A stretch of 64,000 nucleotides of DNA from Pyrinomonadaceae bacterium (GTDB taxonomy: Bacteria > Acidobacteriota > Blastocatellia > Pyrinomonadales > Pyrinomonadaceae): the NCBI GenBank assembly GCA_051002415.1, contig JBPCMI010000140.1:363-64362 (forward strand), written 5' to 3'. Positions 15,438-38,926 of this stretch are shown in pieces. Both the position numbers and the translations under genes were made by a program. The first letter of the stretch is position 1; the number at the start of each line of letters is the position of its first letter. The notes beneath the pieces were generated by a model. It had not been told where the DNA came from. It did no database searches and saw only the letters and a program-made list of their open reading frames with translations.

Positions 15438-15482
15438 CGTAGCCTCGCCCTGCGCGAGACTGCCGGCGGGATCACCGGCAAG

Positions 15483-18093: not shown

Positions 18094-18127
18094 CCAACGA
18101 CGCTGCGGTTGGACGTTCAGAATGAAA

Positions 18128-18155
18128 GGGAGAAGCACAAGCGCTTCTCCCTTTT
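18128..18155 (+). terminator. Bidirectional intrinsic terminator between convergent genes
   Basis: Perfect 9-bp stem gggagaagc/gcttctccc with a 6-nt loop, followed by TTTT and preceded by AAA. Confidence 0.65.
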
Positions 18156-18159
18156 AATT

Positions 18160-21100: not shown

Positions 21101-22935
21101 GCGCCGCCCGTTGCCGAGCCTCCGGCAACCGTGGCGAAGTCAACCGAGGCTGCACCGCTAGCGCCGCCTGTGCGCGTAACGCTAATAGTCACCACGCCGG
21201 AAGCTTCAGTAACAGTGTAGGTCGCGGAACTGAACTGGACTGTTCCTCCGGAGGGATAGAATTCATCAGCGCCGATGTCCGGAGCAGCGCCATTGGGTCG
21301 CACCTGGGAGTCGATATCGTCGGCGATCCCTGCGATGGTGGTTCCCATGTCAATGTTAGGTGAGAGCGGCGCCAGATGAAGGTTGCTGGTAGTTGAGAAG
21401 TAAAGCGGGTCTACCTGCTTGGAATTAGCATCCTGCGGGGTGGTTAGAGCCGCCTGCCAGTTTGCCAAGGTTTGAAACGACGTAGTAGCGGTATTCCCCG
21501 ACCCGATAGTGGAAAAGCCGCCGGTTCGCAACTGCGTATTCGCCGGGTTGATGTAATAGTTGTTGAAATTCAGGCCACCGGTTCCAAAGCTGTAAGCGGC
21601 GGCATTTAAAGTAATCGCATAATAAAAATTGGCCGCTGTGTTTGAATTCACATCCAGATAGATGCTGTTATTCATCAACGTCAGATTTGCGTTGTTGCTG
21701 CTGTTTGCCTGCGTCACGCGAATCGCGTTGGCGTAAGTTGACGCTGACGCCGCCGCGCCAGGATCCATGTCGCCGGTCAGACTGATCGAGTTGAAAACAA
21801 TTCTATCCGTATGTCCGTTGGCGTAACCGATAGCTACAACCTGGTCGCCAGCCGTTGCATCGGCGCGGATGTTGTAGACAAAGTTATTCGCTACCAGGTT
21901 ATTAGTAGCTGCTCCACCACGGGTGGTTCCGAGTCTGATACCGATTGCCGAGAAAGTTCTCTCCTCGACAATGTCGTGAATAACATTCTTCGTTACTGTG
22001 TAATCGCCGCTCGTAATAGTCGTCGATTCGGTGACACTCCAGTTTTCTCCGCCGATGCAGATGCCACAGCGGTCTGCGCCTGCCGTCGTATTAGCCAAAT
22101 CGCCACCCACGAACTGAACCGTGTTGCGTGAGACCAGCGCGCCGGTGTCCGCTTGCAGGTAAATTCCGGCTTTACCGATTGCGTCAGCGCCGAACGATGC
22201 CGGACCGATAACATTGTCTGTAATAACAAGACCTTCGTTGTTGTTAGTAGTTACGCCCCTGGTCGCCAGACCGTACCGCGCTCTTGTGATCCGGTTGAAG
22301 ATGAATTGATTGTTGTCGTTGTCGTTGCCATCCGTGGCTATAAGGCTAATCGTCGTGCCTCCCATTAAAACGCCGACGGTCGCATTGGTATTGACGTTTG
22401 CCGTCGCGCCCGCCGCAATTTCAAGATTGCGGATCACGTTGTTGCTTGCGCCATTACCAGCTGCGACGCTAGCTAACCAGATGGCAACCGTCGCCGACGC
22501 CGTGCTGTTATTGCGAACAGTCAAGTCGCGATTTGTTCCTGAACCCCCGATGCGCCCATCAATCGTGACATTGTCTGCCCCATTCAGTTTTATGATTGCG
22601 CCCACGATGGTACCGCTTACCGAAACTCCCGGAGCCGTTGGTCGAATCGTTATCGTCGCCCAGTCACCAGCGTTTAGCGCTGCCGTGGCAGTTTCCGTCG
22701 TGCTCGCCGCTATATCGATAGTGATGTTGTTGCCGGTCTGGACGGCGTTCGCATTAATTGCATCGAAAGCGGCTTTCAAAGTTGTATAGCCGCCGTTTGC
22801 GCCAGTTGAACCCGCCACGGTGACCTGGGCCGACGCGGTCGCGGTCATCAACGTCAATGCCGCAATCAGAGTTATCAACGCCGACGCCAGTCGCGCTCCA
22901 AGCAATGCGGAGCCGGGACTCATAGTTCTCTTCAT
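18160..22935 (-). CDS. Large secreted protein P3: parallel beta-helix repeats + Calx-beta-like + LTD + shared C-terminal module
   Basis: Signal peptide (LITLIAALTLMTATASA). Long runs of N/G/T-rich beta-helix-type repeats (NNxIxN). Calx-beta-like VQFSSATYTVTEASGVVTISV...VDYINTSGTFNW. LTD LVISEFRLRG...DEFIEVYN. Module ...FRFLLNVEALP plus a 13-aa tail. Start at 22935, 22974 or 22923. Confidence 0.8.
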   Translation of the reverse strand: MKRTMSPGSALLGARLASALITLIAALTLMTATASAQVTVAGSTGANGGYTTLKAAFDAINANAVQTGNNITIDIAASTTETATAALNAGDWATITIRPTAPGVSVSGTIVGAIIKLNGADNVTIDGRIGGSGTNRDLTVRNNSTASATVAIWLASVAAGNGASNNVIRNLEIAAGATANVNTNATVGVLMGGTTISLIATDGNDNDNNQFIFNRITRARYGLATRGVTTNNNEGLVITDNVIGPASFGADAIGKAGIYLQADTGALVSRNTVQFVGGDLANTTAGADRCGICIGGENWSVTESTTITSGDYTVTKNVIHDIVEERTFSAIGIRLGTTRGGAATNNLVANNFVYNIRADATAGDQVVAIGYANGHTDRIVFNSISLTGDMDPGAAASASTYANAIRVTQANSSNNANLTLMNNSIYLDVNSNTAANFYYAITLNAAAYSFGTGGLNFNNYYINPANTQLRTGGFSTIGSGNTATTSFQTLANWQAALTTPQDANSKQVDPLYFSTTSNLHLAPLSPNIDMGTTIAGIADDIDSQVRPNGAAPDIGADEFYPSGGTVQFSSATYTVTEASGVVTISVTRTGGASGAASVDFATVAGGSATGGASCTAGVDYINTSGTFNWADNDFATKTFNVTLCSDGVVEGSETVNLALSNPTGATLGTPSSAVLTILNSVTFGSAVNVGSGETFTSLTNPGGLFEAINNGALSANLTVNITSDLTTESGAISLNEFGGGFTVTILPSGGAARLISGGSAVVLLDFSGADGVVIDGLNTGGNSLTIRNTTAGTGTAVRYINDASTNTLQNTTLEGGGTSSVLFISTGVTTGNDNIQIVGNIIRDRTDAVSVPFNVINLIGSSATVSNTNILINNNQIINFTQAGILVGMSDDVTVTNNDIFQTAARTTSLFGVAVNSAGGTNLFSENKVHDLTTTLGTSGMQFNDVRATTVSQNRIYNFPSTSGSTGTLTGIQSNGSSGNPANLSVVNNMVSIVPSFTNAQSIFGIRDFGFAGNTFSAYFNTALIGGTGSGTANSWACQRGFSAPTTYTAIDNLCFNSRTGGTGNHFAGGDQSVNTGTFVSNFNFFAGTGATAANFMDLSTSSTATPVSFATWQAGPPARDANSIANTAASFNVSDFFVNAATGDLHLKPTATPVLNAGTPAGGVTNDFDDQTRSATTPDIGADELVLLSAGNLVISEFRLRGSNGISDEFIEVYNASGAAITAQAADASSGLGVAASDGVTRCTIPNGTVIPNGGHYLCVNSGGYSLASYPAGNGTTALGDATYTTEIVDNAGIAIFNNATGGASYTLANRIDAVGSDSEANTLYKEGIGYPSLITTASTDHSLTRNLSTGTPKDTDNNLADFVIVDTQATCLFVVGCATGATADGTIGGRHLGAPGPENLLSPLQRNATIKASLVDIACANSSGAGAASNTTCARHRDTTPGTNATLGTLSIRRTFKNNTGSPVTRLRFRAVDMRSLPPAAGNADLRLFTSSSFTATCVGSGGGCAGPGSVIMIEGTTLEQPPTQTLGGGLNSSASAGTITLASPLAPGASINVQFLLGVQQGGNFRFLLNVEALPSGSQPNPVKKVIF

Positions 22936-23409
22936 TGTTTGGTTCGATGCGAAATTAGTTGGCGAAACTCTCATCGTGGTCGTCTCCTCGGTGGGGCCAG
23001 AATTCCAAAGTCGTCACTGCGGATGCAGCCGAACTATGTCGTTGGAGCGGGGACAGAACCTCTTATCAGGTTCCGAACAGTAACGGGTTGGTTAAACTTC
23101 TTAAGGTTCTGGTGGGCGCGTGTTAATTCGGTCCATCCAGAGCGCTGTTGCTGAAAGCTAAACTTCTTTGCTGTTTGGGTGGGTTTATTAAGTGAGTTTA
23201 TCCAAACAGCTCAGTGCTGAAAGCTTATTCTGGAATATGGCAAAAAGCGGAAGATTGTTAGGCACACAAAATACACACCTCGCCGGAGTAAGGCAAGACT
23301 TTCGGACAACCGTCAAGCTTGAAGACTTCAATACCAGGCAGAGCTTAAAAAAGCAGGAGATAGTAGCGGTAGATGATTCCAATCAAGTGTCGAGAAGTTT
23401 GGAAAGCAA

Positions 23410-29310: not shown

Positions 29311-32300
29311 TTAAGGCAGCGCTTCCACGTTCACGAAGAAGCGGAACGTGCCACCCTGCTGTACCCCAAGCAAGAATCTCAGATCGATTGAAGCACCCGC
29401 GCCGAGCGGTGTTCCGAGCGTTACGGTGTCCATCGACAATGAGGAGTTCAGTCCACCCCCGATAATTTGATTAGGTGGTTCTTCCAGCGTGCTGCCTCTA
29501 AGCGTTAGTGCGCCGGTGCCGCACGGGTTGTTACCTGACGCGACTGGCACGTCGCTCGACGTGATCGCGCGTAGGTCAGCTGTTCCCGGCGGCGCAACTG
29601 CGGTTGTGATATCTACGATGCGGAACCGCAAGCGCGTAATGCTGCCGCCTGTATGGTTCGTGAACTTGCGCCGGATGTCGAGAGTTCCCAGTGAACCATT
29701 GAATACCGGAGTTAGGTCGCGAATCCGATTCGGACTAGCGCTGCTCTGAACACATGGGAAAACCAACGACGCTTTAATTGTTGCGTTGCGTTGAATAGGA
29801 CTTGAGAGGTTCTCCGGTCCCGGTGCTCCGAGGTGAGCGCCGGCACCGGCATCAGTAGCCTGGGTGTCGACGAACACAAAGTCCGCGGGGTTCACGTTAG
29901 TGTCCTTAGGTAGTCCTGATGACAGGTTGCGTACCCAGCTATGTTGCGAACTGATCGCGGGATTGAGCGCCGGATAGCCGGTGCCCTCTTTGTAAAGCGT
30001 GTTGGCTTCACTAGCCGAGCCTACAGCGTCAAGTCGATTAGCCAGTACAAAGTTAGAGGCAAGCGAAGTGTTGAATAACGCAATGCCGGCGTTATCCGGG
30101 ATGTCGTTCGTGTAGCTGATGTCGCCACTTGCAGACGTTCCATTGCCGGCTGGATAACCTGCCAGCGAATAGCCGAGCGAGTTGACGCCCAGGTAATGCC
30201 CGCGGGCGGGAATGACGGTACCGTTCGGAATAGTGAAGCGGGCGACGCCGTCGGAAGCTACAACCGACCAGCCGCTGGTACCGTCAGTCGTCGACACTAC
30301 GATTGCTGCGTTAGTGTTGTTGTAAATCTCAACAAACTCATCGGTTGCAGCTTGCGAAATAGTTCCGTTCGGCTCGGGTGAAGTACCTACAGGTCCAGGG
30401 CCACGTAACCGGAACTCGCTTATCAAAACAGACCCAAGGGGCTGAGCGCCGAGTGAAAAATAGGCAACGGGCATGTCATGATCCGAATTTCGCTCCGGGC
30501 GCGCGGCGTTAGAAACGAAGGCTGCCGCCGGGAATTCCGGAAAATCGGCGTTGTTGCGCGCGATCGCGATGCGCGTCTTGCGCCCGTTGGCTACCGTGTT
30601 GACGAGCACGTGATCGAGCGCCTGAGGCGTACCCTCGAAGATGAAACTGTAACGCTCGTCGGCCGGCAGGTCGTCAATCAAGTTAATGAAGTTCGGGTTC
30701 ACAAGATCGGGACTCTGATCAACGACGATCTGATCGTCGGGCGTCGGGTTGCCCTTGATAACAGAGAGGGGATCGGTGTAGCCGTCGTTGAATTGATAAG
30801 CGTTGTAGTCGCCGACGGAGATCACACTGGTCCCGGGGTTACCAGACTGCAAATCCTGCAGCAAGTCGGCTAGAAATTCGGCCTGTGCCGTGCGTTTGGC
30901 GCGGACGCGCGGACCCTCACCGGTAACCAACTCAATGTCGATGAACGAGCGTAGGTGGTTGACGACAACGATGACCGGCAAATTAACGCCAAGAGGCTGA
31001 ACGCGCGCGCGGAGTACGAGCGGCGGACGGTCGTTAAGATATGCGGGTTGCCCGTTGGTTGGGTCAATATAGGTATTGCAGGTAGCTGCGTTACCGAGGC
31101 ATCCGGCGAGTTCGATCTGCGTGACGCTATCGACTTGAACACGCGCGGTGTTGACGAGATAGCCAACGTCTTGATCGGCGTCTCCAGTCGTGCTGTCGGC
31201 TTCGACGAGGAAGGCTTGGTAAGAAACACCCGGCGCGATCGCGTTGACCTCGGCGGCGAGGGCTTGCAGACCGGTAAGTTCGAAGATTTCGGCATGCCCG
31301 ATGATGTCGGGCAGTTTCATCACGTCGCGGATGGCGAGCGCGGCTTTCTGACGTTGCGTTGCGTTGTTGTTAAAGTTTTCGATATTGAAACCGGCCACGG
31401 TAAATTCCGTCGACGTAGGGGTCGGCACCGGGACGGCGCTCATATTAGCCGAAGCGATTAAGCTGGTTTCGGGAATGAGCCGATACCGACCAAAAGCAAA
31501 ATCGAGCGGCCCTGCAATGCTCGAGAACGTCACGTTCGACGTGTAAGCATTGATCGCCGAGCCCGCTCGCCCGTTTGTATCCACGGACAAGCGTTCGGGG
31601 TTTTCGTCCCAGCGGGGAATGCAACAGTCAGGCGTGCCCGAAGTCGGATCTGGTGGCACCGGTTGCGAGATTTCAATGCCTGGCTCACGGAGCGGGCGCG
31701 GCACACTGCTGAGTACTGTATCAACGTCGAAAAACTCGTCATTCGGAGCTACCGTATTGAGCGAAGCGGAACTCATCCGCATGCCTTCATACTTTTCGAG
31801 TTGCGGCTGCGTGGGTGGCGCAGTTGGATCAAGGATGGTCGCAGTTAGCACGATGGCATCCGGTAGCCCGTTTCCCGTAGAGTTGACTATAACACTCGAA
31901 ACGGGACTGATCTCCGTCAACCCGTTAAACTCGACGGCAGTACCCGTCACGGTCACGTTGTCGCCGACAGCGACCGTCGGGACGGAAGTGGTGAAAACGA
32001 AGATACCTTCGGACGTGTTCGGGTCGGCGTCGTTAGTGGCCGTTGGCTCTTGCAAGAAGAAGCCGCTGGCCGCGCCGCCGTTGTTAGTGCTGGTCCTGAG
32101 CAACGTGACGATGCCCGTGGTCGTTACAGCCTGACCGGCGAGAGGCGACGTCGCGCCGCTACCCTGTATCTGGTTAATTTTGACGGGCGTGCTATTGATT
32201 ACCGTGAAGTCGAAGACGTAATCCAGCGCCATGTTGTTGGGCGTCCCGTCTTGATCCGCGACCTGGGCCGCCACGACTGTGACCGTGCAGATTTCGCCTT

Positions 32301-33312
32301 GCGTGAAGTCAACTGTCGGATCGAGGGTGTAGGTAGTCGTACCGCCGCTCAGACTGAACGCATGAGTTGAGCTCGCGGAGCAGCTAATGGTGAACGAACT
32401 ACCCGTTGCAGTGACAGGCTCGCTGAAAGTCACGCTAATGTTCGTGTTAACGGCGACGTTGAGCGCGTTGTCCGTCGGAACCGTGCTGGACACGGTTGGG
32501 GCGATGTCAACGGGCGGCCCGCCAGAAAAAGTCTGGCCGGTATTAGGCAAGTTCTGCGTGTGGGCAATCGAGGTGGCGTTCCAGGTGAAGTCGCCGTAGT
32601 TGTCGCCCGTGCCCTGTAACTGGAGCGATGTTCCGGCGGCATTAGTACCATCCTGGAAAACGCCGATGCTAGTGCAAGTCTGCCCGTTGGCGGGGCCATC
32701 CGTCGCTGCGAACGTGCCCTCGTAGCAGAGGAACTGGACGAGCGTGCCGTTATTGACGAGTGCGATGCCGTCCGGCGCACCATTTTGGATACCGTTCGAG
32801 GCGTAGGAAATTGAGACTGTGCCATAGCCACCCTGCTGGGAGGGTATGGGGGTGGGCAGCGAATCTGTATCGTATGCGAGGCCATTGCTCCCGTTGTAGA
32901 GCACAATTGTCCAGCCCGTCAGGTTCGTCCCCGCCGGTCCTGCAACCTCGACGAATTCGCCGGCGTCAGTACCCGTAATGTCGTACAAAATCTCGTTGAT
33001 GAAGACGGTAGAAAGGGTTCCTGCCACATTCGCTGTAATGTTCTTGCGCTTGACCAAACGCTGCGCGACCGCCACCGTGCCCGGAAGCGCGGGCTGAAGA
33101 AGAATAAACGCAGCCGTGATTAGTGCAACAAGTTGATTGTGCAGGGAAGCGCGATGTCCTCGGCCAAAGAGAGATGTAAACACAGGGTTGGTTCCTTTCG
33201 AGATGTTTGAATAGATCTTGCGGGCAGGCAGGAGAGAAACTTGCCCTTCGTTTCGTAATCGACAGAAGATTTCAGTTAAGCCCGAAGGGTAAAACGATCC
33301 TGACACCTCCAA
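29311..33312 (-). CDS. ExeM/NucH-type extracellular nuclease (P4) with an extra C-terminal LTD and the shared C-terminal module
   Basis: N-terminal LTD (VFINEILYD...GEFVEV...LTGWTIVLYNGSNG). Ig-like segment. EEP nuclease motifs (FNIENFNN, VVVNHLRS, GDYNAYQF, LDHVLVN, SDHDMPVAYF). Second LTD VLISEFRLRG...DEFVEIYN, then ...FRFFVNVEALP. The exact start is uncertain. Confidence 0.8.
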   Translation of the reverse strand: MEVSGSFYPSGLTEIFCRLRNEGQVSLLPARKIYSNISKGTNPVFTSLFGRGHRASLHNQLVALITAAFILLQPALPGTVAVAQRLVKRKNITANVAGTLSTVFINEILYDITGTDAGEFVEVAGPAGTNLTGWTIVLYNGSNGLAYDTDSLPTPIPSQQGGYGTVSISYASNGIQNGAPDGIALVNNGTLVQFLCYEGTFAATDGPANGQTCTSIGVFQDGTNAAGTSLQLQGTGDNYGDFTWNATSIAHTQNLPNTGQTFSGGPPVDIAPTVSSTVPTDNALNVAVNTNISVTFSEPVTATGSSFTISCSASSTHAFSLSGGTTTYTLDPTVDFTQGEICTVTVVAAQVADQDGTPNNMALDYVFDFTVINSTPVKINQIQGSGATSPLAGQAVTTTGIVTLLRTSTNNGGAASGFFLQEPTATNDADPNTSEGIFVFTTSVPTVAVGDNVTVTGTAVEFNGLTEISPVSSVIVNSTGNGLPDAIVLTATILDPTAPPTQPQLEKYEGMRMSSASLNTVAPNDEFFDVDTVLSSVPRPLREPGIEISQPVPPDPTSGTPDCCIPRWDENPERLSVDTNGRAGSAINAYTSNVTFSSIAGPLDFAFGRYRLIPETSLIASANMSAVPVPTPTSTEFTVAGFNIENFNNNATQRQKAALAIRDVMKLPDIIGHAEIFELTGLQALAAEVNAIAPGVSYQAFLVEADSTTGDADQDVGYLVNTARVQVDSVTQIELAGCLGNAATCNTYIDPTNGQPAYLNDRPPLVLRARVQPLGVNLPVIVVVNHLRSFIDIELVTGEGPRVRAKRTAQAEFLADLLQDLQSGNPGTSVISVGDYNAYQFNDGYTDPLSVIKGNPTPDDQIVVDQSPDLVNPNFINLIDDLPADERYSFIFEGTPQALDHVLVNTVANGRKTRIAIARNNADFPEFPAAAFVSNAARPERNSDHDMPVAYFSLGAQPLGSVLISEFRLRGPGPVGTSPEPNGTISQAATDEFVEIYNNTNAAIVVSTTDGTSGWSVVASDGVARFTIPNGTVIPARGHYLGVNSLGYSLAGYPAGNGTSASGDISYTNDIPDNAGIALFNTSLASNFVLANRLDAVGSASEANTLYKEGTGYPALNPAISSQHSWVRNLSSGLPKDTNVNPADFVFVDTQATDAGAGAHLGAPGPENLSSPIQRNATIKASLVFPCVQSSASPNRIRDLTPVFNGSLGTLDIRRKFTNHTGGSITRLRFRIVDITTAVAPPGTADLRAITSSDVPVASGNNPCGTGALTLRGSTLEEPPNQIIGGGLNSSLSMDTVTLGTPLGAGASIDLRFLLGVQQGGTFRFFVNVEALP

Positions 33313-33477: not shown

Positions 33478-33756
33478 TTAAGAGTTTGCAGTCAACAAAC
33501 GATGCGCAGCGAGCGAATTCACCAGGCGTTCGACAGATGCTGTTGCGTGTTCCGCTGTCACGTCGTAGTGGTCCGTGATCTCGCGCGCAATATCGGCTGT
33601 GGTCTGACCGCGTTCTAGACCGCGCCAAACCAGCATCGCTGTCTCGTTCAGCGTGTAGTAACGCTTGGTATTAAGATCGACGAGCACGGCTTCACGGCCG
33701 TCGAACTCGGTATAAACAACGTGGCTGTGTGGCTGCGGTGTGGCGGAGGCGTTCAA
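33478..33756 (-). CDS. PqqD-family protein (RiPP recognition element-type)
   Basis: FDGREAVLVDLNTKRYYTLNETAMLVWRGLERGQTTADIAREITDHYDV...ERLVNSLAAHRLL is a typical PqqD winged-helix pattern. 21 nt downstream of the radical SAM gene. Start codon uncertain (TTG 33756). Confidence 0.8.
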   Translation of the reverse strand: MNASATPQPHSHVVYTEFDGREAVLVDLNTKRYYTLNETAMLVWRGLERGQTTADIAREITDHYDVTAEHATASVERLVNSLAAHRLLTANS

Positions 33757-33777
33757 GTGATCTCTTTCTAATTTGAT

Positions 33778-34872
33778 TCAGTCGCTGGTAGTGGCGGGCG
33801 CGACAATTACCGGCAGCGAGCGTCCGTTCACCCCTTGTGTGTTAACGCCCTCACTGCGCCAGGGGATTTTCCCAAAACTTTGCAAACAGAACAGACAAGG
33901 TGACCCCGTATAAAGGTCCGGTGTCTCGCCGCGTGCTGCGATGTCGGCTAAAGCTTGCCGGCGTCGTTCGAGTTGCTGCTGCGCCAGGGTTTTCAACCGC
34001 GTGTAGCCATCCGCAAAGCTCTCGCGATTCAGATCTGCCACCACATCCGGCTCCCCACCGGCGTTCCGATAACCTGCCAGATTGCAGCAAAGCGTTAAAC
34101 GACCGCGCCAATCGACATTACAACTGGTGGTTTTAAGCGGCGAACAGGGAACATCCGAATGGATGTCGTAGTAACCCGCGGCGATGCCGATCGGCATCTT
34201 CAAAATCTTTGCGAGTCCCACTACTTCCTGTTCCGCATGACGCTGTTCTTCGAGCGACAATGCCGACTCCTGCTCAGCTTCCGCCGATGTTGGCAATAAG
34301 TGCGAAAAATGAAGAGCAGCGGCGCCGAGCCGCGCGGCCAGTAAAGCGATCGACTCCAGCTCGGTCATCGTATCGCGGCGTATACCGACTTTGAACACAA
34401 ACGGAATGCTTTGCACATGACAGCGAGTTACCGCGCGGATCACGCGATCGAAAGATCCGGCGCCACGCCAGAAGTCGTGCGATTCGCGCGTTGCTCCGTC
34501 GATACTGAAAGCGACGAGACGAACTGCTTGCTTGTGCTCCATGATCGCCGGGTAAACGCGATCGAAGTGCCAACCATTTGTAACAAAGCTGCATTGCATG
34601 CCTTCACTTGCCACTGCTGCAATCATGTCGTTGAAGCGAGGATGGAGCGTTACTTCGCCGCCGGTGAAGGTAACGTAGTCAATCTGGTAAGCGTCGCGCG
34701 CTTCGCGAACGATCCGTCCGAGCAGCTCTGCGGGAAAGTAGTTAGCTTTGGTGTGATAGAGAGCGTCCTCATCGCGCATGCAATAGCTGCAATGGAGATT
34801 GCAGATATTCGTCAGCTCGACAGTTAAGCGAACTGGATCCTGGCGCTGGGGAACTTCGGTCGTCATGGTCAC
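33778..34872 (-). CDS. Radical SAM enzyme with C-terminal SPASM-type Cys-rich domain
   Basis: CNLHCSYC (CxxxCxxC) near the N-terminus. FTGGEVTLHP SAM-binding type motif. C-terminal Cys cluster CSPLKTTSCNVDWRGRLTLCCN...GSPCLFC. Confidence 0.85.
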   Translation of the reverse strand: MTMTTEVPQRQDPVRLTVELTNICNLHCSYCMRDEDALYHTKANYFPAELLGRIVREARDAYQIDYVTFTGGEVTLHPRFNDMIAAVASEGMQCSFVTNGWHFDRVYPAIMEHKQAVRLVAFSIDGATRESHDFWRGAGSFDRVIRAVTRCHVQSIPFVFKVGIRRDTMTELESIALLAARLGAAALHFSHLLPTSAEAEQESALSLEEQRHAEQEVVGLAKILKMPIGIAAGYYDIHSDVPCSPLKTTSCNVDWRGRLTLCCNLAGYRNAGGEPDVVADLNRESFADGYTRLKTLAQQQLERRRQALADIAARGETPDLYTGSPCLFCLQSFGKIPWRSEGVNTQGVNGRSLPVIVAPATTSD

Positions 34873-34881
34873 GAAACCTTT

Positions 34882-35943
34882 TTACTCTGTCATGTAGGGC
34901 GCGAGCAAGTTAGCGGCTCGCTCAGGCTGAAGCAACAGGTCACGACCAGCTGCCAGTTCGTAAGCACGGCATTGATTTGCCAGCCGGGCCAGGACTCGCA
35001 AGTAGCTGGGCGCCGTATACGTGTCGTAAGTGGCCCAGGGACAGTGTCGCACGAGCTGCTCCATTGCGGCGCGAGCTCCGATCTCGTTGATCCTCGTCTC
35101 ATCCGACAAGACCACTCGCGGGAAGAAGAGCGCGCGCGGTTGGCAACTGGCCGCTCGGCTCTCAGGAAAAACTGTTTCCGGTTCCAGGCGGCGCTTGGAG
35201 GGATCGGATGCCACGGGAGGACCCAGGGCGGCGCTCAACTTCATGCTACTGCTACCAACCACCGAAGTGTCAGCCACCGCAAACAAGCGGCGCAGCCCTT
35301 CCGCTTCGAGCGAAGTAGGAGTTTCACGCAACACCACCATGTCATCCGACAAGTAGCGCCAGCCTGCTTCCGTGAGACGCAACGTCAACGTCGTCTTGCC
35401 GCTTCCTGAAGCGCCAACAAAAAGGGCGCCCGTTTGCGAAATCGGCTCGAGGGCGCCGGCGGCATGCACGTCGAAAACTCCGGCGCGACGCAATGCGGCT
35501 TGCAGCCCATAGGAAAACGCGTTGACCAGCGCGACCGGATGTCGCGCGTGTTCGCTTACCCCAAACCAGACTTCAACTAATCGATCATCGGGTACCGAGA
35601 TGTGAATCAGCGATTCATCTACAGCCAAAAAATACTGGCTGCCATCCGTGAAGCACTCGCCGCGATTGATCGCGAACGATTGCAATCCAGACGGGATGAT
35701 CGGAAGCGACGCGCGTCTTACTGTCAGCGTGATTGAGGGCTGGTCAACGGGAGCAACCGTGTGAACCAGGTGAAAACCCTTCAGGAAACTGGCGACCCAG
35801 TGCGCTTCCCAATCACCGAGGGTGTGGACGCGAAGGAGGCGGTCGGCAATATTGTAGTGACTAATCAGGCCAGAAGTGGTGTTAGCTTGAAACTGCGACT
35901 CGAGCACTTCGTCGGGTACGGACCGAATGCGAGGAACCTGCAA
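34882..35943 (-). CDS. HPr-kinase-like (HprK-related) putative peptide kinase
   Basis: Walker A FVGASGSGKTTLTL followed by YLSDDMVVL, as in the HprK C-terminal domain. ~350 aa. TTG start 3 nt after the stop of precursor A, in the same frame. Confidence 0.7.
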   Translation of the reverse strand: MQVPRIRSVPDEVLESQFQANTTSGLISHYNIADRLLRVHTLGDWEAHWVASFLKGFHLVHTVAPVDQPSITLTVRRASLPIIPSGLQSFAINRGECFTDGSQYFLAVDESLIHISVPDDRLVEVWFGVSEHARHPVALVNAFSYGLQAALRRAGVFDVHAAGALEPISQTGALFVGASGSGKTTLTLRLTEAGWRYLSDDMVVLRETPTSLEAEGLRRLFAVADTSVVGSSSMKLSAALGPPVASDPSKRRLEPETVFPESRAASCQPRALFFPRVVLSDETRINEIGARAAMEQLVRHCPWATYDTYTAPSYLRVLARLANQCRAYELAAGRDLLLQPERAANLLAPYMTE

Positions 35944-35946
35944 TTG

Positions 35947-36129
35947 TTAGGTTGTAGCACTTTCGATGGTCGGCGCCTGGAAGAAGGTGGTTGCTTCCAG
36001 AACATCGGCGGGCACCGAAACGGGCGGCTCGACAAACGGCTTCTTGCTGGTTGGCTCAGTGGCAGCTTCAGTTAGACGGTCTTGGTCGTTGAGCTGCTCG
36101 TGGCCCGGAACAATTGGTTGTTTACTCAA
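35947..36129 (-). CDS. Putative RiPP precursor peptide A (60 aa, TTG start)
   Basis: GGGAGG 9 nt upstream of TTG. Sequence SKQPIVPGHEQLNDQDRLTEAATEPTSKKPFVEPPVSVPADVLEATTFFQAPTIESATT. Paralogous to 36244-36414. The shared 13-codon block differs only by synonymous changes. Confidence 0.65.
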   Translation of the reverse strand: MSKQPIVPGHEQLNDQDRLTEAATEPTSKKPFVEPPVSVPADVLEATTFFQAPTIESATT

Positions 36130-36172
36130 AGCTGCAGCCTCCCTGAAATCATTAATTGCGTCTTAGCTTCGC

Positions 36173-36211
36173 TGCCGGCACAAGTCAGAGATCATATGGC
36201 TAGTGCCGGCA
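36173..36211 (-). promoter_or_regulatory. Intercistronic stem-loop between the two precursor genes
   Basis: tgccggcac (36173-36181) and gtgccggca (36203-36211): perfect 9-bp stem, 21-nt loop, no U-tract. Possible mRNA processing/stability element. Confidence 0.4.
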
Positions 36212-36243
36212 ATTAAGCAGACACACACACGCAAACGTGAACG

Positions 36244-36414
36244 CTAGACAGTGGTGGTATCGACAGTAGGAGCTTGAAAGAAGGTTGTCGCCTCGAGCAC
36301 ATCTTCAGGAGTTGAAACAGTCGGCTCTACGAAAGGCAATTTTGAATCCGTTTGCGTCAGCTCGTTTTGATCCGTGACTTGCTCGCTTACAACATGACTG
36401 TTTGGCTTATTCAA
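36244..36414 (-). CDS. Putative RiPP precursor peptide B (56 aa, TTG start; below the ORF-track size cutoff)
   Basis: My own translation: (M)NKPNSHVVSEQVTDQNELTQTDSKLPFVEPTVSTPEDVLEATTFFQAPTVDTTTV, stop TAG at 36244-36246. GGAGAC SD upstream of TTG 36414. 12 nt after the stop of the 36427 gene. Confidence 0.6.
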   Translation of the reverse strand: MNKPNSHVVSEQVTDQNELTQTDSKLPFVEPTVSTPEDVLEATTFFQAPTVDTTTV

Positions 36415-36426
36415 GGTTCGGTCTCC

Positions 36427-37326
36427 TCACATTTTGATTGTCTGACTGATTGGCTGCGCTAGTACTAGACGCAATGGTTTGGTCTCGTACGTCTGCAGGT
36501 CGGTACGTTGGTACAAACGAATGTTCGGCGAAAGCGTCCTCACCACTTGTTCCATGGTGGCGTTGTTCAAGTCAACGTTAACAATCTCCGAAGAGTCATA
36601 TTTCATCTCGAAAGGAATGTCAACCTTGCTGGCAATTTCGTAAAGTACAGCCGTCAAGGGCTGTTTTCGTGCCCTGACAGTGAACTGATTGCGATCGATT
36701 TTGACGCTCAATGAAATCTCTTGCTCGTCCTTGGCCGCTTGCTCGGTGCCTTCTTCGGTGTTTCCGGAAATGAGAATCGCTTCCGAATCTCCGCGCACCA
36801 CAGCCGACTCTGAAGGCGGTGATTCATTCAGAGCATAAAGATAGAGAGCGACAATCTTTGGCATCGTGCTGCCATCGCCGCTGATTTCGTAATCAGCGTA
36901 AGGCTGCGGCGCAATCATCCGCACCGCGCCTTCCAGAGGCATGCCTTCAAATTCAATCGTGACGCGTGCTTTTTGCATCACCGGGCTCAAGAGCACAGGA
37001 ATATCAAACTCCTTGCTGAGCTTGGCGGCGATCTCCGCTACTAAAGCCGCATTGGCTTTCAAGTCCACGGCGCGCACAGGTCCGCTGGCAACCTTCAAAG
37101 TGAACTTGCCCTTGGCCTCTTTGGATTTTGCTTTATCGGCTGAGGCAGGCACTTGCTTATCAACTGAATCCGGTGCTGCTGCTTTCTCTTTTTGCGCAGC
37201 CGGCTTGGTCTCTTCGCCGGCGGTTGCGGGCACTGTGTTTTGAGTGCGGCTTTGCGCCAGCGCCGCGGCGGGCAGGATCAGTAACAGGACGAGTGCGAAC
37301 AAGCGACTGGAAAACATCTGCGCCAT
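36427..37326 (-). CDS. Secreted protein with two internal repeats (STN/secretin-N0-like by impression); first gene of the precursor operon
   Basis: ATG 37326 with a GAGG SD. Signal peptide MAQMFSSRLFALVLLLILPAAALAQ, Lys/Ala-rich linker. Two similar ~80-aa units (...DLKANAALVAEIAAKLSKEFDIPVLL...; ...RKQPLTAVLYEIASKVDIPFEM...). The 54 codons upstream in the ORF track are probably not translated. Confidence 0.55.
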   Translation of the reverse strand: MAQMFSSRLFALVLLLILPAAALAQSRTQNTVPATAGEETKPAAQKEKAAAPDSVDKQVPASADKAKSKEAKGKFTLKVASGPVRAVDLKANAALVAEIAAKLSKEFDIPVLLSPVMQKARVTIEFEGMPLEGAVRMIAPQPYADYEISGDGSTMPKIVALYLYALNESPPSESAVVRGDSEAILISGNTEEGTEQAAKDEQEISLSVKIDRNQFTVRARKQPLTAVLYEIASKVDIPFEMKYDSSEIVNVDLNNATMEQVVRTLSPNIRLYQRTDLQTYETKPLRLVLAQPISQTIKM

Positions 37327-37582
37327 TCTAACTACCTCTTGAAAAATGAAGCCTGAATTAACTTTCAGCAGACCTTCCAGTCTCGCCGGTGTCAACTTTG
37401 TATCGTGGGGACTAAATAGAGTTTCCTTAGCGTCGAATCGTTGCCCCATCCCGAGACATGAAACCGCCGTTAACGGCGGCCGGGGCACATCTGGAACATT
37501 CCCCGTCGCACGTTAGTCTGACGTGAAGGAATTTCCGTATGGCCCGGACAGTAGCACATTGTCTCGCGCACGGCAACGACTT

Positions 37583-37702
37583 CAAAAAAAAGCGTAGTGC
37601 CCTAAATTGTAGAGAAAACTTTTAGTTTGCGCTGAATAAATGGCATTCAAGGCGCACGCAAACTAACAGTTTGCGTTACAAAGACCTACACCGGGGCACT
37701 AC
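37583..37702 (-). terminator. Complex terminator-like structure downstream of the nucleotidyltransferase gene
   Basis: On the minus-strand RNA, GUAGUGCCC (37702-37694) pairs with GGGCACUAC (37602-37594), followed by U8 (37590-37583). Encloses a perfect hairpin ACGCAAACU-GUU-AGUUUGCGU (37676-37656) and a third copy of the word (37632-37624). Confidence 0.45.
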
Positions 37703-37720
37703 CGAAAAAAGTCTTTGGTG

Positions 37721-38926
37721 CTAATGGAAATGGCTGGGCCCACCCGTAACCACCAACCGCACGGGACGCAGAAGGTAATAAATAAAGGTCAGCGCTGGAG
37801 GCAATTTAAGCCGCACAAGATCCTCCTCGTTCGGCGTAAATGTGAATCTGAGATAGTTCAACTTGTCCCGTAACCTGCGGCGCGCTCGTAACTGAAACCT
37901 GAAATAGCCCGTCATGCCGGTTCTTGTCAGCTCGGGAGTGAATAGATCGCGAATAACATCCTGGGCCAGGGCCGCGACTGAGACATCAACATTTAATGCG
38001 TTCTCCACATGTTTCGGAAGGGGCACTTCCAGTAAATCTGCGGCCAAACGCAAACCCAGAAAAAGCATGCGTTCGCTCCCCGTGGATCGCGCGCGACTAA
38101 TTAGTTCCTGCCAGTTCAGGTCCGTCTCAGTTGCGATCAGACCAGCGATGTCGCAAACCCACGCAAGCCGCTCCCAAAGATGTTTCGATCCATGAATGCA
38201 CAACGCCAGAAGTAGATCTTCCGTCGCCGGAACTTTGATAGCAACTGTTTCCAACTTTGCGTCCAGCAATCGCGACCAAAAATCATCAGTCTCAAACGGA
38301 CGTGCAAAAGCCGGGGCGCTAACAGTCCAGTGAAGCTCGACGATCATGCGGTTTCGATCGCGGGTAAAAGGCAGGTTGCATTGAGTTCGTAAGAGCACGG
38401 CTTGCTGGCCCTCAGTCAGCGGCGGTAATTGCGCATAGCCTTCGGACAAAAGTAAGTCGCGCGCGCGCAGCACGTCGCCCGGGTGCACAAGAATATCGAG
38501 ATCGCTGAACTGACGGAGTGCGACGTTTCCGTAAATCTGCAAAGCGAGGGCAGGCCCTTTATACGGCGCTGCCCGAACATCGTTGTCGACAAACAGCGTG
38601 AGCAGTTTCTGCAGCTCGTGGGTGAGCAGAATGTTCAGCGCGGAAACGCGTTGAAAAGCGACGCGCAAGTGTTGACGCTGCTGACTGGGAACAGCCTCAG
38701 GACAAACTGCGTTCAAGTGCGAATGCAGCAACGGTTGCAAGCCATGACGATCAGCCAACCGCAGCACCAGATCCCAGTCAAGTGGTCCCGACACGAGATC
38801 CTGAATTCGTTTTTTTTGGGCCTCATCGAGTGAAGCACGTGCACAGGTAAGCAGGAGCGCGGACTCAGGTCTCTCCGCAGCGAAACCGTTTGCCGCAACA
38901 TTCGAAACTTTGAGGGACGCAGACAT
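37721..38926 (-). CDS. Uncharacterised nucleotidyltransferase family protein (NTP_transf_5-like)
   Basis: N-terminal LLLTCARASLDE...DWDLVLRLADRHGLQPLLHSHL pattern and ~400-aa size are typical of this family, which often accompanies lasso/PqqD-type RiPP loci. Confidence 0.6.
   Translation of the reverse strand: MSASLKVSNVAANGFAAERPESALLLTCARASLDEAQKKRIQDLVSGPLDWDLVLRLADRHGLQPLLHSHLNAVCPEAVPSQQRQHLRVAFQRVSALNILLTHELQKLLTLFVDNDVRAAPYKGPALALQIYGNVALRQFSDLDILVHPGDVLRARDLLLSEGYAQLPPLTEGQQAVLLRTQCNLPFTRDRNRMIVELHWTVSAPAFARPFETDDFWSRLLDAKLETVAIKVPATEDLLLALCIHGSKHLWERLAWVCDIAGLIATETDLNWQELISRARSTGSERMLFLGLRLAADLLEVPLPKHVENALNVDVSVAALAQDVIRDLFTPELTRTGMTGYFRFQLRARRRLRDKLNYLRFTFTPNEEDLVRLKLPPALTFIYYLLRPVRLVVTGGPSHFH

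What the first reader, a model, noticed from the sequence alone, without database searches (positions are those of the whole stretch)
33478..38926. RiPP-like operon: two precursors + HprK-like kinase + radical SAM/SPASM + PqqD, a lasso-type accessory set with no lasso cyclase
Seen directly on the minus strand, the operon order and spacing are:
- a secreted two-repeat protein (36427-37326), then a 12-nt gap;
- precursor B (36244-36414), then a stem-loop;
- precursor A (35947-36129), then 3 nt;
- a kinase with Walker A GASGSGKTT (34882-35943), then 9 nt;
- a radical SAM enzyme with CNLHCSYC plus a C-terminal Cys cluster (33778-34872), then 21 nt;
- a PqqD protein (33478-33756).
Upstream, behind a terminator-like structure, sits an NTP_transf_5-like gene (37721-38926).

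Established knowledge:
- PqqD-type RRE domains dock leader peptides for radical SAM/SPASM maturases.
- HPr-kinase homologues phosphorylate Ser of lasso precursors in paeninodin-type clusters.
- NTP_transf_5 and B2 proteases travel with lasso loci.
- As far as I recall, HprK-related kinase + PqqD + rSAM/SPASM neighbourhoods are catalogued (for example the GeoRSP system) without a known substrate.

Inference: this is a complete maturation cassette with its substrates visible. Both precursors lack Cys, Trp and Tyr altogether, and Lys occurs only in the N-terminal leader region. That excludes the known sactipeptide/ranthipeptide, streptide, PQQ and mycofactocin chemistries. What remains is Phe/Thr/Gln-based crosslinks (cyclophane or Thr-O-C ether types) plus Ser/Thr phosphorylation.
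Basis: partly seen in the sequence, partly recalled or inferred. Interest (0 to 1): 0.9.

Follow-up and report, generated by a model that had tools for sequence, protein, structure and literature searches.

The report
Lasso-derived peptide pathway with radical SAM enzyme
This soil Acidobacteria operon makes short modified peptides with the leader-recognition, protease, kinase and nucleotidyltransferase toolkit of phosphorylated lasso peptides, but a radical SAM enzyme replaces the ring-forming cyclase; the family is very widespread and I found no description of it.

Summary
All seven ORFs, their spacings and motifs are as described, and the domain calls hold, except that no SPASM Pfam hit was found.

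The two small ORFs are real precursors:
- 95 homologous peptides lie beside the same kinase, rSAM and PqqD genes in 78 of 81 sources.
- Codons vary synonymously at invariant residues.
- A profile of the peptides finds 4,137 protein clusters in metagenomes.

Their leader, F-x-E-P-x-V-S…T-x, has the spacing of the lasso and LPP leader motifs (aromatic-xxP, Thr at +15). The PqqD protein matches only lasso B1 structures. No lasso cyclase occurs in the window or in 80 related loci.

The predicted product is a 10-15-residue peptide that starts Phe-Phe. It is anionic through Asp/Glu, or through sulfated Ser/Thr where a sulfotransferase gene is present (perfect covariation). It is probably also phosphorylated, perhaps glycosylated, and altered by the rSAM in an unknown way.

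A secreted two-domain protein, and secreted proteins sharing an LTD plus C-terminal module, travel with the cassette.

The closest known systems are paeninodin-type lasso clusters and LPPs. This is a new variant, and the chemistry is untested.

The parts
37721..38926 (-). NTP_transf_5 nucleotidyltransferase-fold protein ('N'). It shares the 'uncharacterised nucleotidyltransferase' class with PsmN and LppN; no direct comparison with them was made.
   Evidence: PF14907, E 3.6e-63. Contains an SDLD (DxD) motif. Present in 60 of 80 related loci. PsmN adds hexose to the phosphoserine of pseudomycoidin (PMC6993621).
37585..37702 (-). Terminator-like structured RNA between the N gene and the operon.
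   Evidence: Stem GUAGUGCCC...GGGCACUAC followed by U7; -42.5 kcal/mol, z = -4.35. No Rfam family matched.
36427..37326 (-). Secreted protein: signal peptide, disordered linker, then two ~90-aa alpha/beta domains of the FecR_C / secretin-N0 (STN) type.
   Evidence: AF2 pLDDT 71, with folded domains at residues 74-164 and 206-289. Of 42 family members, 35 weakly hit FecR_C and 16 hit T3S secretin N0. Present in 71 of 80 loci. There is a 12-nt gap to precursor B.
36244..36414 (-). Precursor B (56 aa). Leader motif FVEPTVSTPEDVLEATT; predicted core FFQAPTVDTTTV at 36247-36282.
36172..36212 (-). GC-rich 10-bp hairpin between the two precursor genes.
   Evidence: Its function (attenuation or mRNA stabilisation) is inferred.
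35947..36129 (-). Precursor A (60 aa). Leader motif FVEPPVSVPADVLEATT; predicted core FFQAPTIESATT at 35950-35985.
34882..35943 (-). HprK-like / ScmC-like P-loop kinase ('K').
   Evidence: TIGR04352 E 2e-13, below cutoff. 23 of 24 family members hit Hpr_kinase_C, all below threshold. The P-loop and SDD motif are conserved. Homologues carry precomputed PF27840 ScmC hits. Present in 68 of 80 loci.
33778..34872 (-). Radical SAM enzyme with a C-terminal Cys-rich auxiliary domain and no fused RRE.
   Evidence: PF04055. All NCBIfam hits are far below cutoff. AF2 pLDDT 84. Foldseek top hits are SuiB, SkfB, DesII, BlsE, CteB, PqqE and anSME. Conserved Cys residues are listed.
33478..33756 (-). Discrete PqqD-type RRE, lasso-B1-like.
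   Evidence: PF05402, E 7e-18. The best NCBIfam hit is lasso_PqqD_Strm, 60 bits against a cutoff of 70. The only PDB sequence matches are lasso B1 proteins TfuB1, TbiB1 and 9x90.
9831..10334 (+). Lasso-type B2 cysteine protease, the predicted leader peptidase, 23 kb from the operon.
   Evidence: NF033537 lasso_biosyn_B2, 53 bits against a cutoff of 33; PF13471, 54.5 bits. The motifs around the presumed catalytic Cys (CWKRA) and His (GHAWLE) are conserved in 42 homologues. Convergent with and next to the cassette in 41 of 80 loci, and in 35 of 49 loci with >=6 kb of downstream sequence.
29311..33312 (-). ExeM/NucH-like secreted nuclease carrying a C-terminal LTD + ~250-aa module that ends ...FRFFVNVEALP. 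Candidate partner of the system.
   Evidence: The module lies next to the cassette in 46 of 80 loci and in 31 of 40 full-flank loci. It is also present in rearranged or distant loci L053, L054, L066, L085 and L087. The functional link is inferred.
10470..22974 (-). Three further genes carrying the same LTD/C-terminal module (10470-11132, 11919-15437, 18160-22974). They fill the space between the B2 gene and the operon.

Best explanation
This is a ribosomal-peptide (RiPP) maturation system derived from the phosphorylated-lasso (paeninodin / LPP) toolkit, in which the macrolactam cyclase is absent and a radical SAM enzyme is present instead.

Proposed sequence of events:
1. Precursors A and B (about 56-60 aa) are bound through the leader motif K-K-x-F-x-E-P-x-V-S by the discrete B1-type PqqD protein. 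Shown: motif conservation and B1 homology. Inferred: binding.
2. On this scaffold the HprK/ScmC-like kinase phosphorylates a Ser or Thr of the C-terminal core, most likely the frequent penultimate Thr. The NTP_transf_5 protein then decorates the phosphate, as PsmN does. Both steps are inferred by homology.
3. The radical SAM enzyme has no RRE of its own, so it depends on PqqD. It carries out a hydrogen-abstraction-initiated change in the invariant region ...L-E-A-T-x-F-F. My preferred guess is a crosslink involving the Phe-Phe pair. Inferred; weakest step.
4. The B2 cysteine protease cuts after the invariant Thr plus one variable residue. This releases a 10-15-residue peptide that starts Phe-Phe and carries an obligatory negative charge in its middle: Asp/Glu, or O-sulfo-Ser/Thr in relatives that have a sulfotransferase gene. 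Shown: covariation. Inferred: cleavage site.
5. The product acts outside the cytoplasm together with the co-transcribed secreted two-domain STN/FecR_C-like protein. It possibly also acts with secreted enzymes that bear the LTD + C-terminal module.
For: Precursors are real and linked to the enzymes:
- 95 peptides occur in 78 of 81 sources, between the secreted-protein gene and the kinase gene.
- F0, P3, T15 and F18 are invariant, yet 2-6 synonymous codons are used at invariant or near-invariant positions.
- The precursor profile finds 4,137 clusters, which gene callers independently call as ORFs of 40-81 aa, mostly 46-64 aa.

Lasso/LPP-type leader:
- F-xx-P-x-V with Thr at +15 and a variable next residue (T61/A27/S5/R/K).
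- This is the same spacing as the LPP motif YxxPxVLxHQxIxFET and the lasso [Y/W]xxPx[L/V/I] motif with penultimate Thr (PMC13381572; PMC10368454).

Enzymes:
- PqqD matches only lasso B1 structures.
- B2 passes the NCBIfam lasso_biosyn_B2 cutoff and is syntenic with the cassette across Pyrinomonadaceae and Thermoanaerobaculia MAGs and one MAG labelled Gammaproteobacteria.
- No cyclase-like PP-loop ORF was found.
- The kinase and N protein are of the same enzyme classes as PsmK/PsmN and LppK/LppN.
- The rSAM fold is closest to peptide-modifying SPASM/twitch enzymes and begins directly with the core domain.

Sulfotransferase covariation:
- All 9 evaluable loci with a sulfotransferase gene have cores without Asp/Glu (x[ST]SGxTN in place of x[DE]SGxTN).
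- Among loci where it can be evaluated, none without that gene has an acid-less core (L080, which has acid-less cores, ends just after the rSAM gene).
- Two further acid-less precursors chosen afterwards also have the gene.
Against: - No product has been observed and no enzyme activity tested.
- The kinase is only distantly HprK-like (below all curated cutoffs). No Ser/Thr position in the core is invariant.
- Where the penultimate residue is Asp, the kinase gene is still present.
- The B2 gene is 23 kb away in this window and was not found within the flanks of about a third of loci.
- The aromatic leader residue is Phe, not Tyr/Trp.
- The rSAM also resembles sugar- and nucleotide-modifying enzymes (DesII, BlsE, viperin).
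- More distant rSAM relatives (41% identity) sit next to precursors without Phe-Phe, so the Phe-Phe target is a guess.
- No exporter is encoded in the operon.
- The sulfotransferase loci may be one clade, so the covariation may reflect few evolutionary events.
Confidence: 0.6

Rival explanations
1. Same pathway, but the radical SAM enzyme does not touch the peptide backbone or side chains. It remodels the sugar or nucleotide that the NTP_transf_5 protein (with a glycosyltransferase) attaches to the phosphate, in the manner of DesII, BlsE or viperin.
For: DesII, BlsE and viperin are among the best structural and sequence matches. In seven loci the rSAM gene lies next to the N gene rather than next to PqqD (L011, L013-15, L018, L020, L026). 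A GT1 gene follows the N gene in L084 and L085.
Against: The best fold matches overall are peptide maturases (SuiB, SkfB). The rSAM-PqqD gene pair is the commonest arrangement. Six conserved C-terminal Cys residues point to auxiliary clusters, which by my recollection are typical of peptide maturases and absent from BlsE, DesII and viperin. Distant cassettes keep rSAM and PqqD but show no N gene in view.
Confidence: 0.15
2. The product stays linear, like the LPPs. The radical SAM enzyme is an epimerase (YydG/EpeE- or PoyD-like) that installs D-residues, for example at the N-terminal Phe-Phe, to protect a short secreted phosphopeptide.
For: YydG/EpeE appears among the sequence and fold matches. 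The cores lack the residues used by most known crosslinks. LPPs show that this toolkit can yield linear products.
Against: The matches to epimerases are weaker than those to crosslinking enzymes. No specific evidence supports this.
Confidence: 0.15
3. The peptides are precursors of a small peptide-derived cofactor or redox molecule (PQQ / mycofactocin logic). The rSAM and PqqD would crosslink Glu13 to Phe17 (E-x3-F, compare E-x3-Y of PqqA), and proteases would excise the product.
For: The cassette is vertically inherited at a fixed chromosomal position between lepA and the LTD genes. The modified region is highly conserved. No exporter is present. The E-x3-F spacing is seen directly in the sequence.
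Against: Scores against PqqE and MftC models are far below cutoff. There is no Tyr. The cassette includes one to three paralogous precursors with variable tails, a secreted partner protein, a kinase, N, a sulfotransferase and a lasso-type B2. Glu13 is Asp in 6 of 95 peptides, and residue 17 is Leu in one.
Confidence: 0.06
4. It is an ordinary lasso peptide cluster whose cyclase is encoded elsewhere in the genome.
For: B1, B2, the kinase, N and a lasso-type leader are all present. Cores A and B have Glu/Asp at position 8.
Against: No PP-loop ORF occurs in 64 kb here or in 80 loci of up to 15 kb. Many cores have the acid at position 6 or none at all, and are only 10-12 residues long. The first residue is Phe.
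Confidence: 0.03

Closest known systems
Paeninodin / pseudomycoidin-type phosphorylated lasso peptide clusters (Bacillota)
   Same: Discrete B1 RRE, B2 cysteine protease, HprK-like kinase, uncharacterised NTP transferase, and a leader with aromatic-xxP and penultimate Thr.
   Different: No macrolactam synthetase, and no ABC exporter in the operon. A radical SAM enzyme and a secreted STN-type protein are present. Cores are 10-15 aa, start Phe-Phe, and have no obligatory Asp/Glu at positions 7-9. The host phylum is Acidobacteriota.
Linear polyphosphorylated peptides, LPP (Popov et al., Nat Commun 2026, PMC13381572)
   Same: A cyclase-less offshoot of the same toolkit: kinase, discrete RRE, NTP transferase, one to three precursors, and a leader with Y/F-xx-P and Thr at +15.
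   Different: LPPs use an SpI (SipW-like) peptidase and an MsbA exporter, phosphorylate Ser3 of a long core, have no radical SAM enzyme, and are reported as restricted to Bacillota. This locus has B2, an rSAM, Gln at position 3 and very short cores.
NCBIfam 'GeoRSP', 'SynChlorMet (Scm)' and 'HPr-rel-A' cassettes
   Same: The GeoRSP and SynChlorMet cassettes are catalogued with a PqqD-family chaperone and radical SAM/SPASM protein(s), and HPr-rel-A with an HprK-like protein and a PqqD chaperone. Pairing of an HprK-like protein with the first two is my recollection. The family names appear, and ScmC hits on kinase homologues.
   Different: All scores are far below the curated cutoffs (for example GeoRSP_rSAM 46 against 400, ScmE 71 against 400, HprK_rel_A 50 against 200). 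I found no paper on those systems in the searched library, whereas here the precursors are evident.
RRE-dependent radical SAM/SPASM peptide maturases (PqqE-PqqD, SuiB, SkfB, CteB; Phe-based triceptide cyclophane synthases)
   Same: A radical SAM core plus a Cys-rich C-terminal domain, and dependence on a PqqD-type RRE. These are the best structural matches.
   Different: The Cys spacing is non-canonical with no SPASM Pfam hit. The substrates lack Cys, Trp, Lys and Tyr. The RRE is lasso-B1-like and is presumably shared with a protease and a kinase.

Membership tests
Lasso peptide biosynthetic cluster | Leader with [Y/W]xxPx[L/V/I] and Thr at the penultimate leader position | tested here: met
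   F-x-E-P-x-[VIL] with invariant Thr at +15 and a variable next residue in 95 of 95 peptides. The aromatic residue is Phe, not Tyr/Trp.
Lasso peptide biosynthetic cluster | B1 RRE and B2 transglutaminase-like protease | tested here: met
   B2: NF033537, 53 bits against a cutoff of 33. PqqD: PF05402, and its only PDB matches are lasso B1 proteins. It scores below the cutoffs of the lasso-specific PqqD models (60 against 70).
Lasso peptide biosynthetic cluster | Asn-synthetase-like macrolactam synthetase (C protein) | tested here: not met
   No ORF >200 aa with a PP-loop S[GA]GxDS motif in the window or in the 80 loci. No such family appears in the Pfam lists for neighbouring genes.
Lasso peptide biosynthetic cluster | Core with Asp/Glu at positions 7-9 and a tail long enough to thread | tested here: not met
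   Cores are 10-15 aa. The acid is at position 6 in the commonest type and absent in the sulfotransferase-linked type.
LPP (linear polyphosphorylated peptides) | HprK-like kinase + discrete RRE + NTP transferase, no cyclase | tested here: met
   The kinase is only distantly HprK-like.
LPP (linear polyphosphorylated peptides) | SpI (SipW-like) leader peptidase and MsbA-type exporter | tested here: not met
   No signal-peptidase or MsbA-type ABC exporter family appears among the operon genes or the recurrent neighbours. L085 alone has a MacB/FtsX-type transporter gene upstream. A B2 protease is present instead.
LPP (linear polyphosphorylated peptides) | Ser at core position 3 as the polyphosphorylation site | tested here: not met
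   Position 3 is Gln in 82 of 95 peptides and never Ser.
GeoRSP system (NCBIfam) | rSAM reaching the TIGR04303 cutoff and kinase reaching the TIGR04355 cutoff | tested here: not met
   46.5 bits against 400, and 26.1 bits against 200.
SynChlorMet cassette (NCBIfam) | ScmD, ScmE and ScmF equivalogs | tested here: not met
   33.5 bits against 100, 71.4 against 400, and 68.1 against 400. The ScmC Pfam hits on homologues are mostly weak.
HPr-rel-A system (NCBIfam) | TIGR04352 kinase and TIGR04353 PqqD above cutoff | tested here: not met
   50.1 bits against 200, and 19.7 bits against 35.
Radical SAM / SPASM-twitch peptide maturases | CxxxCxxC radical SAM core | tested here: met
   C24, C28 and C31 are invariant; PF04055.
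Radical SAM / SPASM-twitch peptide maturases | SPASM domain with the seven-Cys motif binding auxiliary clusters | tested here: inconclusive
   No PF13186 hit. Six conserved Cys have a different spacing: C243-x7-C251-x10-CC...C326-x2-C329. The fold aligns over about 300 columns with SuiB, CteB and anSME. The model coordinates could not be inspected.
PQQ / mycofactocin pathways | PqqE or MftC equivalog, and a precursor with conserved Tyr | tested here: not met
   47.7 bits against 381, and 76.4 bits against 265. There is no Tyr in either window precursor, and only one Tyr among the 95 cores.

The most novel reading that the evidence does not exclude
The cassette defines a new RiPP class. An ancestral lasso/LPP recognition-and-processing module (B1, B2, kinase, NTP transferase) was recombined with a radical SAM enzyme that installs a new class-defining modification on an N-terminal Phe-Phe peptide. 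The resulting small anionic (phospho-, glyco-, sulfo-) peptide is not an antibiotic. It is a conserved extracellular ligand or anchor that works with the secreted STN-type protein and with a family of secreted enzymes sharing the LTD + '...VNVEALP' C-terminal module. Together they would form a peptide-dependent system for positioning or activating exoenzymes in Acidobacteriota.
Probability: 0.25. Interest if true: 0.88.

Novelty: new variant of a known kind. Interest (0 to 1): 0.72.

Why it matters
Acidobacteriota are among the most abundant soil bacteria and their peptide natural products are almost unknown.

This family is very large: 4,137 precursor clusters at 90% identity, and the cassette occurs in at least 80 species-level genomes. 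It is vertically conserved and has clearly visible substrates, which makes it directly testable by heterologous co-expression.

It shows that the lasso recognition and processing module can be detached from the cyclase and coupled to radical chemistry. Together with the LPPs reported in 2026, this suggests a wider superfamily of 'lasso-derived' peptides.

The substrates contain none of the residues used by most characterised radical SAM peptide crosslinks, so the reaction is likely to be new or at least unusual.

The sulfotransferase / acidic-residue covariation gives a concrete, falsifiable prediction about the product. The persistent association with a secreted STN-type protein and with LTD-module exoenzymes hints at a physiological role rather than an antibiotic one.

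Tried and rejected
- **Exact look-up of the window rSAM:** not on record in the contig collection.
- **Sigma-54 promoter:** an NtrC-type regulator lies upstream in 40 loci, but TGGCAC-N5-TTGC has no match near the operon and fewer matches window-wide than in shuffles.
- **Sigma-70-like promoter scan:** none found in 33200-39100. The simple terminator scan gave counts no higher than in shuffles.
- **Rfam on the whole window:** only an SRP RNA. No tRNAs.
- **Foldseek of the secreted protein against the PDB:** nothing significant; only weak partial hits to secretin N-domain and T4SS outer-membrane-core proteins.
- **PDB sequence search with the LTD/C-terminal module:** nothing meaningful. Pfam and NCBIfam find nothing for its last 250 aa.
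- **Kinase against the PDB:** only P-loop-level matches to HprK.
- **Literature:** searches for this architecture (rSAM + HprK kinase + PqqD/B1/B2; Acidobacteria RiPPs; PF14907 with PF04055; GeoRSP, HPr-rel-A, SynChlorMet) found no description.
- **Phosphomimic idea rejected:** I considered that the penultimate residue (Thr 61, Asp 14 of 95) shows a phospho-Thr/Asp substitution. I do not rely on it, because loci with Asp keep the kinase gene.
- **Core / C-terminal-module similarity rejected:** the resemblance between the core (FFQ..IE..) and the module's C-terminus (FRFFVNVEALP) is too weak to use.

Full report
**1. Observation**

The stated gaps of 12, 3, 9 and 21 nt are correct.
- Both small ORFs start at TTG behind good Shine-Dalgarno sequences (GGAG and GGGAGG).
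- Pfam confirms PqqD (E 7e-18), Radical_SAM (E 1e-23) and NTP_transf_5 (E 4e-63).
- The kinase reaches Hpr_kinase_C only below threshold (E 4.5e-5). Its best NCBIfam hit is HprK-related kinase A, at 50 bits against a cutoff of 200.
- No SPASM Pfam hit appears.
- The hairpin between the precursors, and a strongly structured terminator-like element (stem plus U7, z = -4.35) after the NTP_transf_5 gene, are both present.

**2. The small ORFs are genuine, conserved precursors**

The rSAM has more than 1,700 homologues in the protein database. The source names attached to them are all Acidobacteriota or Pyrinomonadaceae.

A scan of one genome per species returned 311 relatives. The best 80 loci are all metagenome-assembled genomes: Pyrinomonadaceae, other Acidobacteriota including Chloracidobacterium and Thermoanaerobaculia, and one bin labelled Gammaproteobacteria.

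tblastn and ORF clustering show a conserved order: NTP_transf_5, secreted protein, one to three small ORFs, kinase, rSAM, PqqD.

A motif scan recovered 95 peptides in 78 of 81 sources. The three sources without a peptide are cut off upstream.
- The peptides share K-K-x-F-[VI]-E-P-x-[VI]-S-x-P-x-D-V-L-E-A-T-x-F-F-(Q), followed by a variable tail of 7-13 residues.
- Examples of the resulting cores are FFQAPTIESATT (this window), FFQGPTVDTIQTLTT, FFQLTDSGSTN, FFQFTESGATN, FFQAATSGATN and FFQGSAALDVADL.
- Invariant and near-invariant residues are encoded by two to six different codons (for example six for Ser6 and four each for Pro3 and Thr15). Selection therefore acts on the peptide, not on the DNA or RNA.
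- A profile of 27 of these peptides finds 4,137 clusters (90% identity) in 5.8 billion proteins. Gene callers call them independently as ORFs of 40-81 aa, mostly 46-64 aa, and all 120 listed hits carry the motif.

**3. The leader and its handlers are lasso-derived**

Counting from the invariant Phe, Pro is at +3, Val/Ile/Leu at +5 and an invariant Thr at +15. Thr is followed by one variable residue (T/A/S/R/K) and then by Phe-Phe.

This is the spacing of the LPP leader YxxPxVLxHQxIxFET. It also fits the lasso RRE-binding motif [Y/W]xxPx[L/V/I/F/A] (PMC13381572) with the conserved penultimate Thr of lasso leaders (PMC10368454, abstract). From memory, the full lasso consensus is YxxPxLx3Gx5Tx.

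The PqqD protein's best NCBIfam model is the lasso PqqD chaperone. Its only sequence matches in the PDB are the lasso B1 proteins TfuB1, TbiB1 and 9x90, not PqqD of the PQQ pathway.

Clustering of neighbouring ORFs revealed a ~150-aa protein in 41 of the 80 loci. It lies convergent with the cassette, either just after PqqD or after one intervening gene.
- Its homologue in the window is at 9831-10334 on the plus strand, 23 kb away.
- It passes the curated cutoff of lasso_biosyn_B2 (53 bits against 33) and hits Transglut_core3.
- The CWKRA and GHAWLE motifs, which hold the presumed catalytic Cys and His, are conserved in 42 homologues.
- B2 is present in 35 of 49 loci with at least 6 kb of downstream sequence.

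No ORF with the PP-loop motif of Asn-synthetase-like lasso cyclases exists in the window or in any of the 80 loci. None appears in the Pfam lists of five further contigs found through the precursors.

Cleavage after Thr-x would release cores of 10-15 residues. In this window these are FFQAPTIESATT and FFQAPTVDTTTV.

**4. Tailoring enzymes**

HprK-like kinases of paeninodin-type clusters (poly)phosphorylate the C-terminal Ser. PsmN, an uncharacterised NTP-transferase-fold protein, adds one or two hexoses to that phosphate (PMC6993621; PMC9266682). LppK polyphosphorylates Ser3 of the LPP core.

The kinase here keeps the P-loop and the SDD motif. The family is only distantly HprK-like (23 of 24 members hit the Pfam model below threshold), and homologues carry precomputed ScmC hits.

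No single Ser or Thr of the core is invariant, but Thr is the commonest core residue (20%). The penultimate residue is Thr in 61 of 95 peptides.

A GT1 glycosyltransferase follows the NTP_transf_5 gene in some loci. This fits phospho-glycosylation.

**5. A covariation that ties peptides to enzymes**

Ten of the 80 loci carry a sulfotransferase-like gene between rSAM and PqqD (weak Sulfotransfer_3 hit).
- All nine of these in which the precursor is visible have a core without any Asp/Glu (x-[ST]-S-G-x-T-N).
- All other evaluable loci have Asp/Glu at the equivalent place (x-[DE]-S-G-x-T-N, or T-[IV]-[ED] in the window type). The one exception, L080, ends just after the rSAM gene and cannot be evaluated.
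- I then picked acid-less precursors from the independent protein search. The two on contigs long enough to judge both have the sulfotransferase gene in the same position.

The simplest reading is that a negative charge in the middle of the core is required, and is supplied either genetically or by O-sulfation. These loci may form one clade, so the number of independent events is small.

**6. The radical SAM enzyme**

All NCBIfam scores are far below the cutoffs. The best are the tungsten-cofactor maturase (91 bits against 380), MftC (76 against 265) and ScmE/F.

Profile search of the PDB aligns only the radical SAM core, with SkfB, BlsE, PqqE and YydG.

The AF2 model (pLDDT 84) starts directly with the core domain, so there is no fused RRE. 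It has a C-terminal beta-hairpin-plus-helix domain that holds the conserved Cys residues.

Foldseek ranks SuiB, SkfB, DesII, BlsE, CteB, PqqE and anSME first.

In the 50%-identity library the whole acidobacterial family collapses to one representative. The next full-length relatives are at most 41% identical, and 144 clusters score E<1e-30.

The chemistry cannot be read from sequence. The substrates contain no Cys, Trp or Lys and essentially no Tyr.

I favour a modification at the invariant Phe-Phe region, for example a Phe-based crosslink, but with low confidence. Epimerisation, or action on the appended sugar, are live alternatives.

**7. Other conserved partners**

*Secreted protein.* It occurs in 71 of 80 loci and has a signal peptide, a disordered linker and two ~90-aa alpha/beta domains. 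These domains weakly match FecR_C (35 of 42 members) and secretin N0 (16 of 42). These are periplasmic protein-interaction folds. No significant PDB match exists for the whole model.

*LTD + C-terminal module.* The ExeM/NucH-like nuclease downstream of PqqD (29311-33312) ends in a lamin-tail domain plus an uncharacterised ~250-aa domain that terminates ...FRFFVNVEALP.
- The same module ends three more proteins between the B2 gene and the operon. Their N-terminal parts differ: Calx-beta, and P-domain / CarboxypepD_reg.
- The module is encoded next to the cassette in 31 of 40 loci with full flanks.
- It is also present, at different positions, in L053, L054 and L066.
- In L085 it is a stand-alone 490-aa protein between PqqD and the precursor.
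- It is even present beside a distant cassette (rSAM 41% identical) whose precursor has a different core (L087).

*Distant cassettes.* These keep the secreted STN-type protein, a small ORF, a ScmC-like protein, the rSAM and PqqD. The small ORF retains only K-K-x-F-x-E-P-x-hydrophobic-S. This identifies that segment as the RRE-binding element and the D-V-L-E-A-T-x-F-F segment as family-specific.

The functional link to LTD-module proteins is an inference from repeated co-location.

**8. Comparison with known systems, and novelty**

The closest characterised systems are paeninodin/pseudomycoidin-type lasso clusters and the cyclase-less LPPs described in 2026. The authors report both paeninodins and LPPs as restricted to Bacillota.

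This locus shares their recognition, kinase and NTP-transferase logic. It fails the defining tests of both: no cyclase, and no SpI peptidase or Ser3.

It also fails the NCBIfam cutoffs of the catalogued but uncharacterised GeoRSP, SynChlorMet and HPr-rel-A cassettes.

Nine literature searches found no description of this combination. The library lacks most subscription-journal papers, so prior mention cannot be excluded.

I rate it a new variant of a known kind: a RiPP pathway built from known enzyme families in an undescribed combination, with an unknown class-defining modification.

**9. Verdict**

- B2 lies elsewhere in the window.
- The leader is lasso-type.
- SPASM is unconfirmed.
- The locus is not a GeoRSP member.

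Step-wise confidence:

| Claim | Confidence |
|---|---|
| RiPP pathway acting on these peptides | ~0.9 |
| B1/B2-type recognition and cleavage after Thr-x | ~0.6 |
| Ser/Thr phosphorylation with further decoration | ~0.55 |
| rSAM modifies the peptide itself | ~0.6 |
| A specific Phe-Phe crosslink | ~0.3 |
| Functional link to LTD-module proteins | ~0.35 |

Noticed in passing
window 29314-30462, 18202-19362, 11922-13001, 10473-11069 (all minus strand); L085 8453-9925; L087 4838-5893: A lamin-tail domain plus an uncharacterised ~250-aa C-terminal domain ending [FY][FLY]VN[VI]EALP is shared by otherwise different secreted proteins (nuclease, Calx-beta, P-domain). It recurs beside the cassette in several different arrangements and in distant relatives. 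The last 250 aa have no Pfam, NCBIfam or PDB match.
   Followed up: partly
window 33778-33850 (rSAM residues ~342-364): The disordered C-terminal tail of the rSAM carries a nearly invariant R-S-L-P-V-[LI] (R351, L353, P354, V355). This is an xxxPxL pattern that resembles the RRE-binding leader motif, so it may be a docking or auto-inhibitory element for PqqD.
   Followed up: no
L043, L058, L062, L064, L068, L070, L072-L074, L078, L081 (between rSAM and PqqD): A sulfotransferase-like gene is present exactly in those loci whose precursor cores lack Asp/Glu (x[ST]SGxTN in place of x[DE]SGxTN).
   Followed up: yes
L087 6053-10658; L088; L089: Distant cassettes (rSAM ~41% identical) keep the order secreted STN-type protein, small ORF, ScmC-like protein, rSAM, PqqD, and add a JmjC_2 gene. 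Their small ORFs retain only KKxFxEPx-hydrophobic-S and have Gly/Asp-rich or hydrophobic C-terminal parts.
   Followed up: partly
L084 7421-8764; L085 3608-4819; ORF cluster 19 in 10 of the 80 loci: A GT1 glycosyltransferase gene lies directly after the NTP_transf_5 gene. It may be the partner that the LPP authors postulated for LppN.
   Followed up: no
L034 8422-10010 and 15 other loci; L085 10359-11881: A pair of unannotated genes (~190 aa, and a ~330-aa multi-pass membrane protein) lies between PqqD or the precursor and B2 in one subclade. Neither has a Pfam or NCBIfam hit.
   Followed up: no
window 41627-44813; ORF clusters 7 and 13 in about 40 loci: An NtrC-type sigma-54 response regulator and a histidine kinase are conserved upstream of the cassette. 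No sigma-54 promoter consensus was found near the operon.
   Followed up: partly
window 25355-27221 and 27251-29167 (plus strand): Two overlapping ORFs (25355-26698 and 26205-27221) look like a frameshifted paralogue of the adjacent 638-aa membrane protein. Both lie inside the stretch between the B2 gene and the operon.
   Followed up: no
window 8954-9466 (minus strand); L081 14102-14326; the contig: An RNase H gene sits next to the B2 gene both here and in relatives. The window therefore keeps the order 'PqqD ... B2, RNase H', with an expanded middle.
   Followed up: no
window 585-683 (plus strand): Bacterial small SRP RNA (RF00169, 66.6 bits).
   Followed up: no
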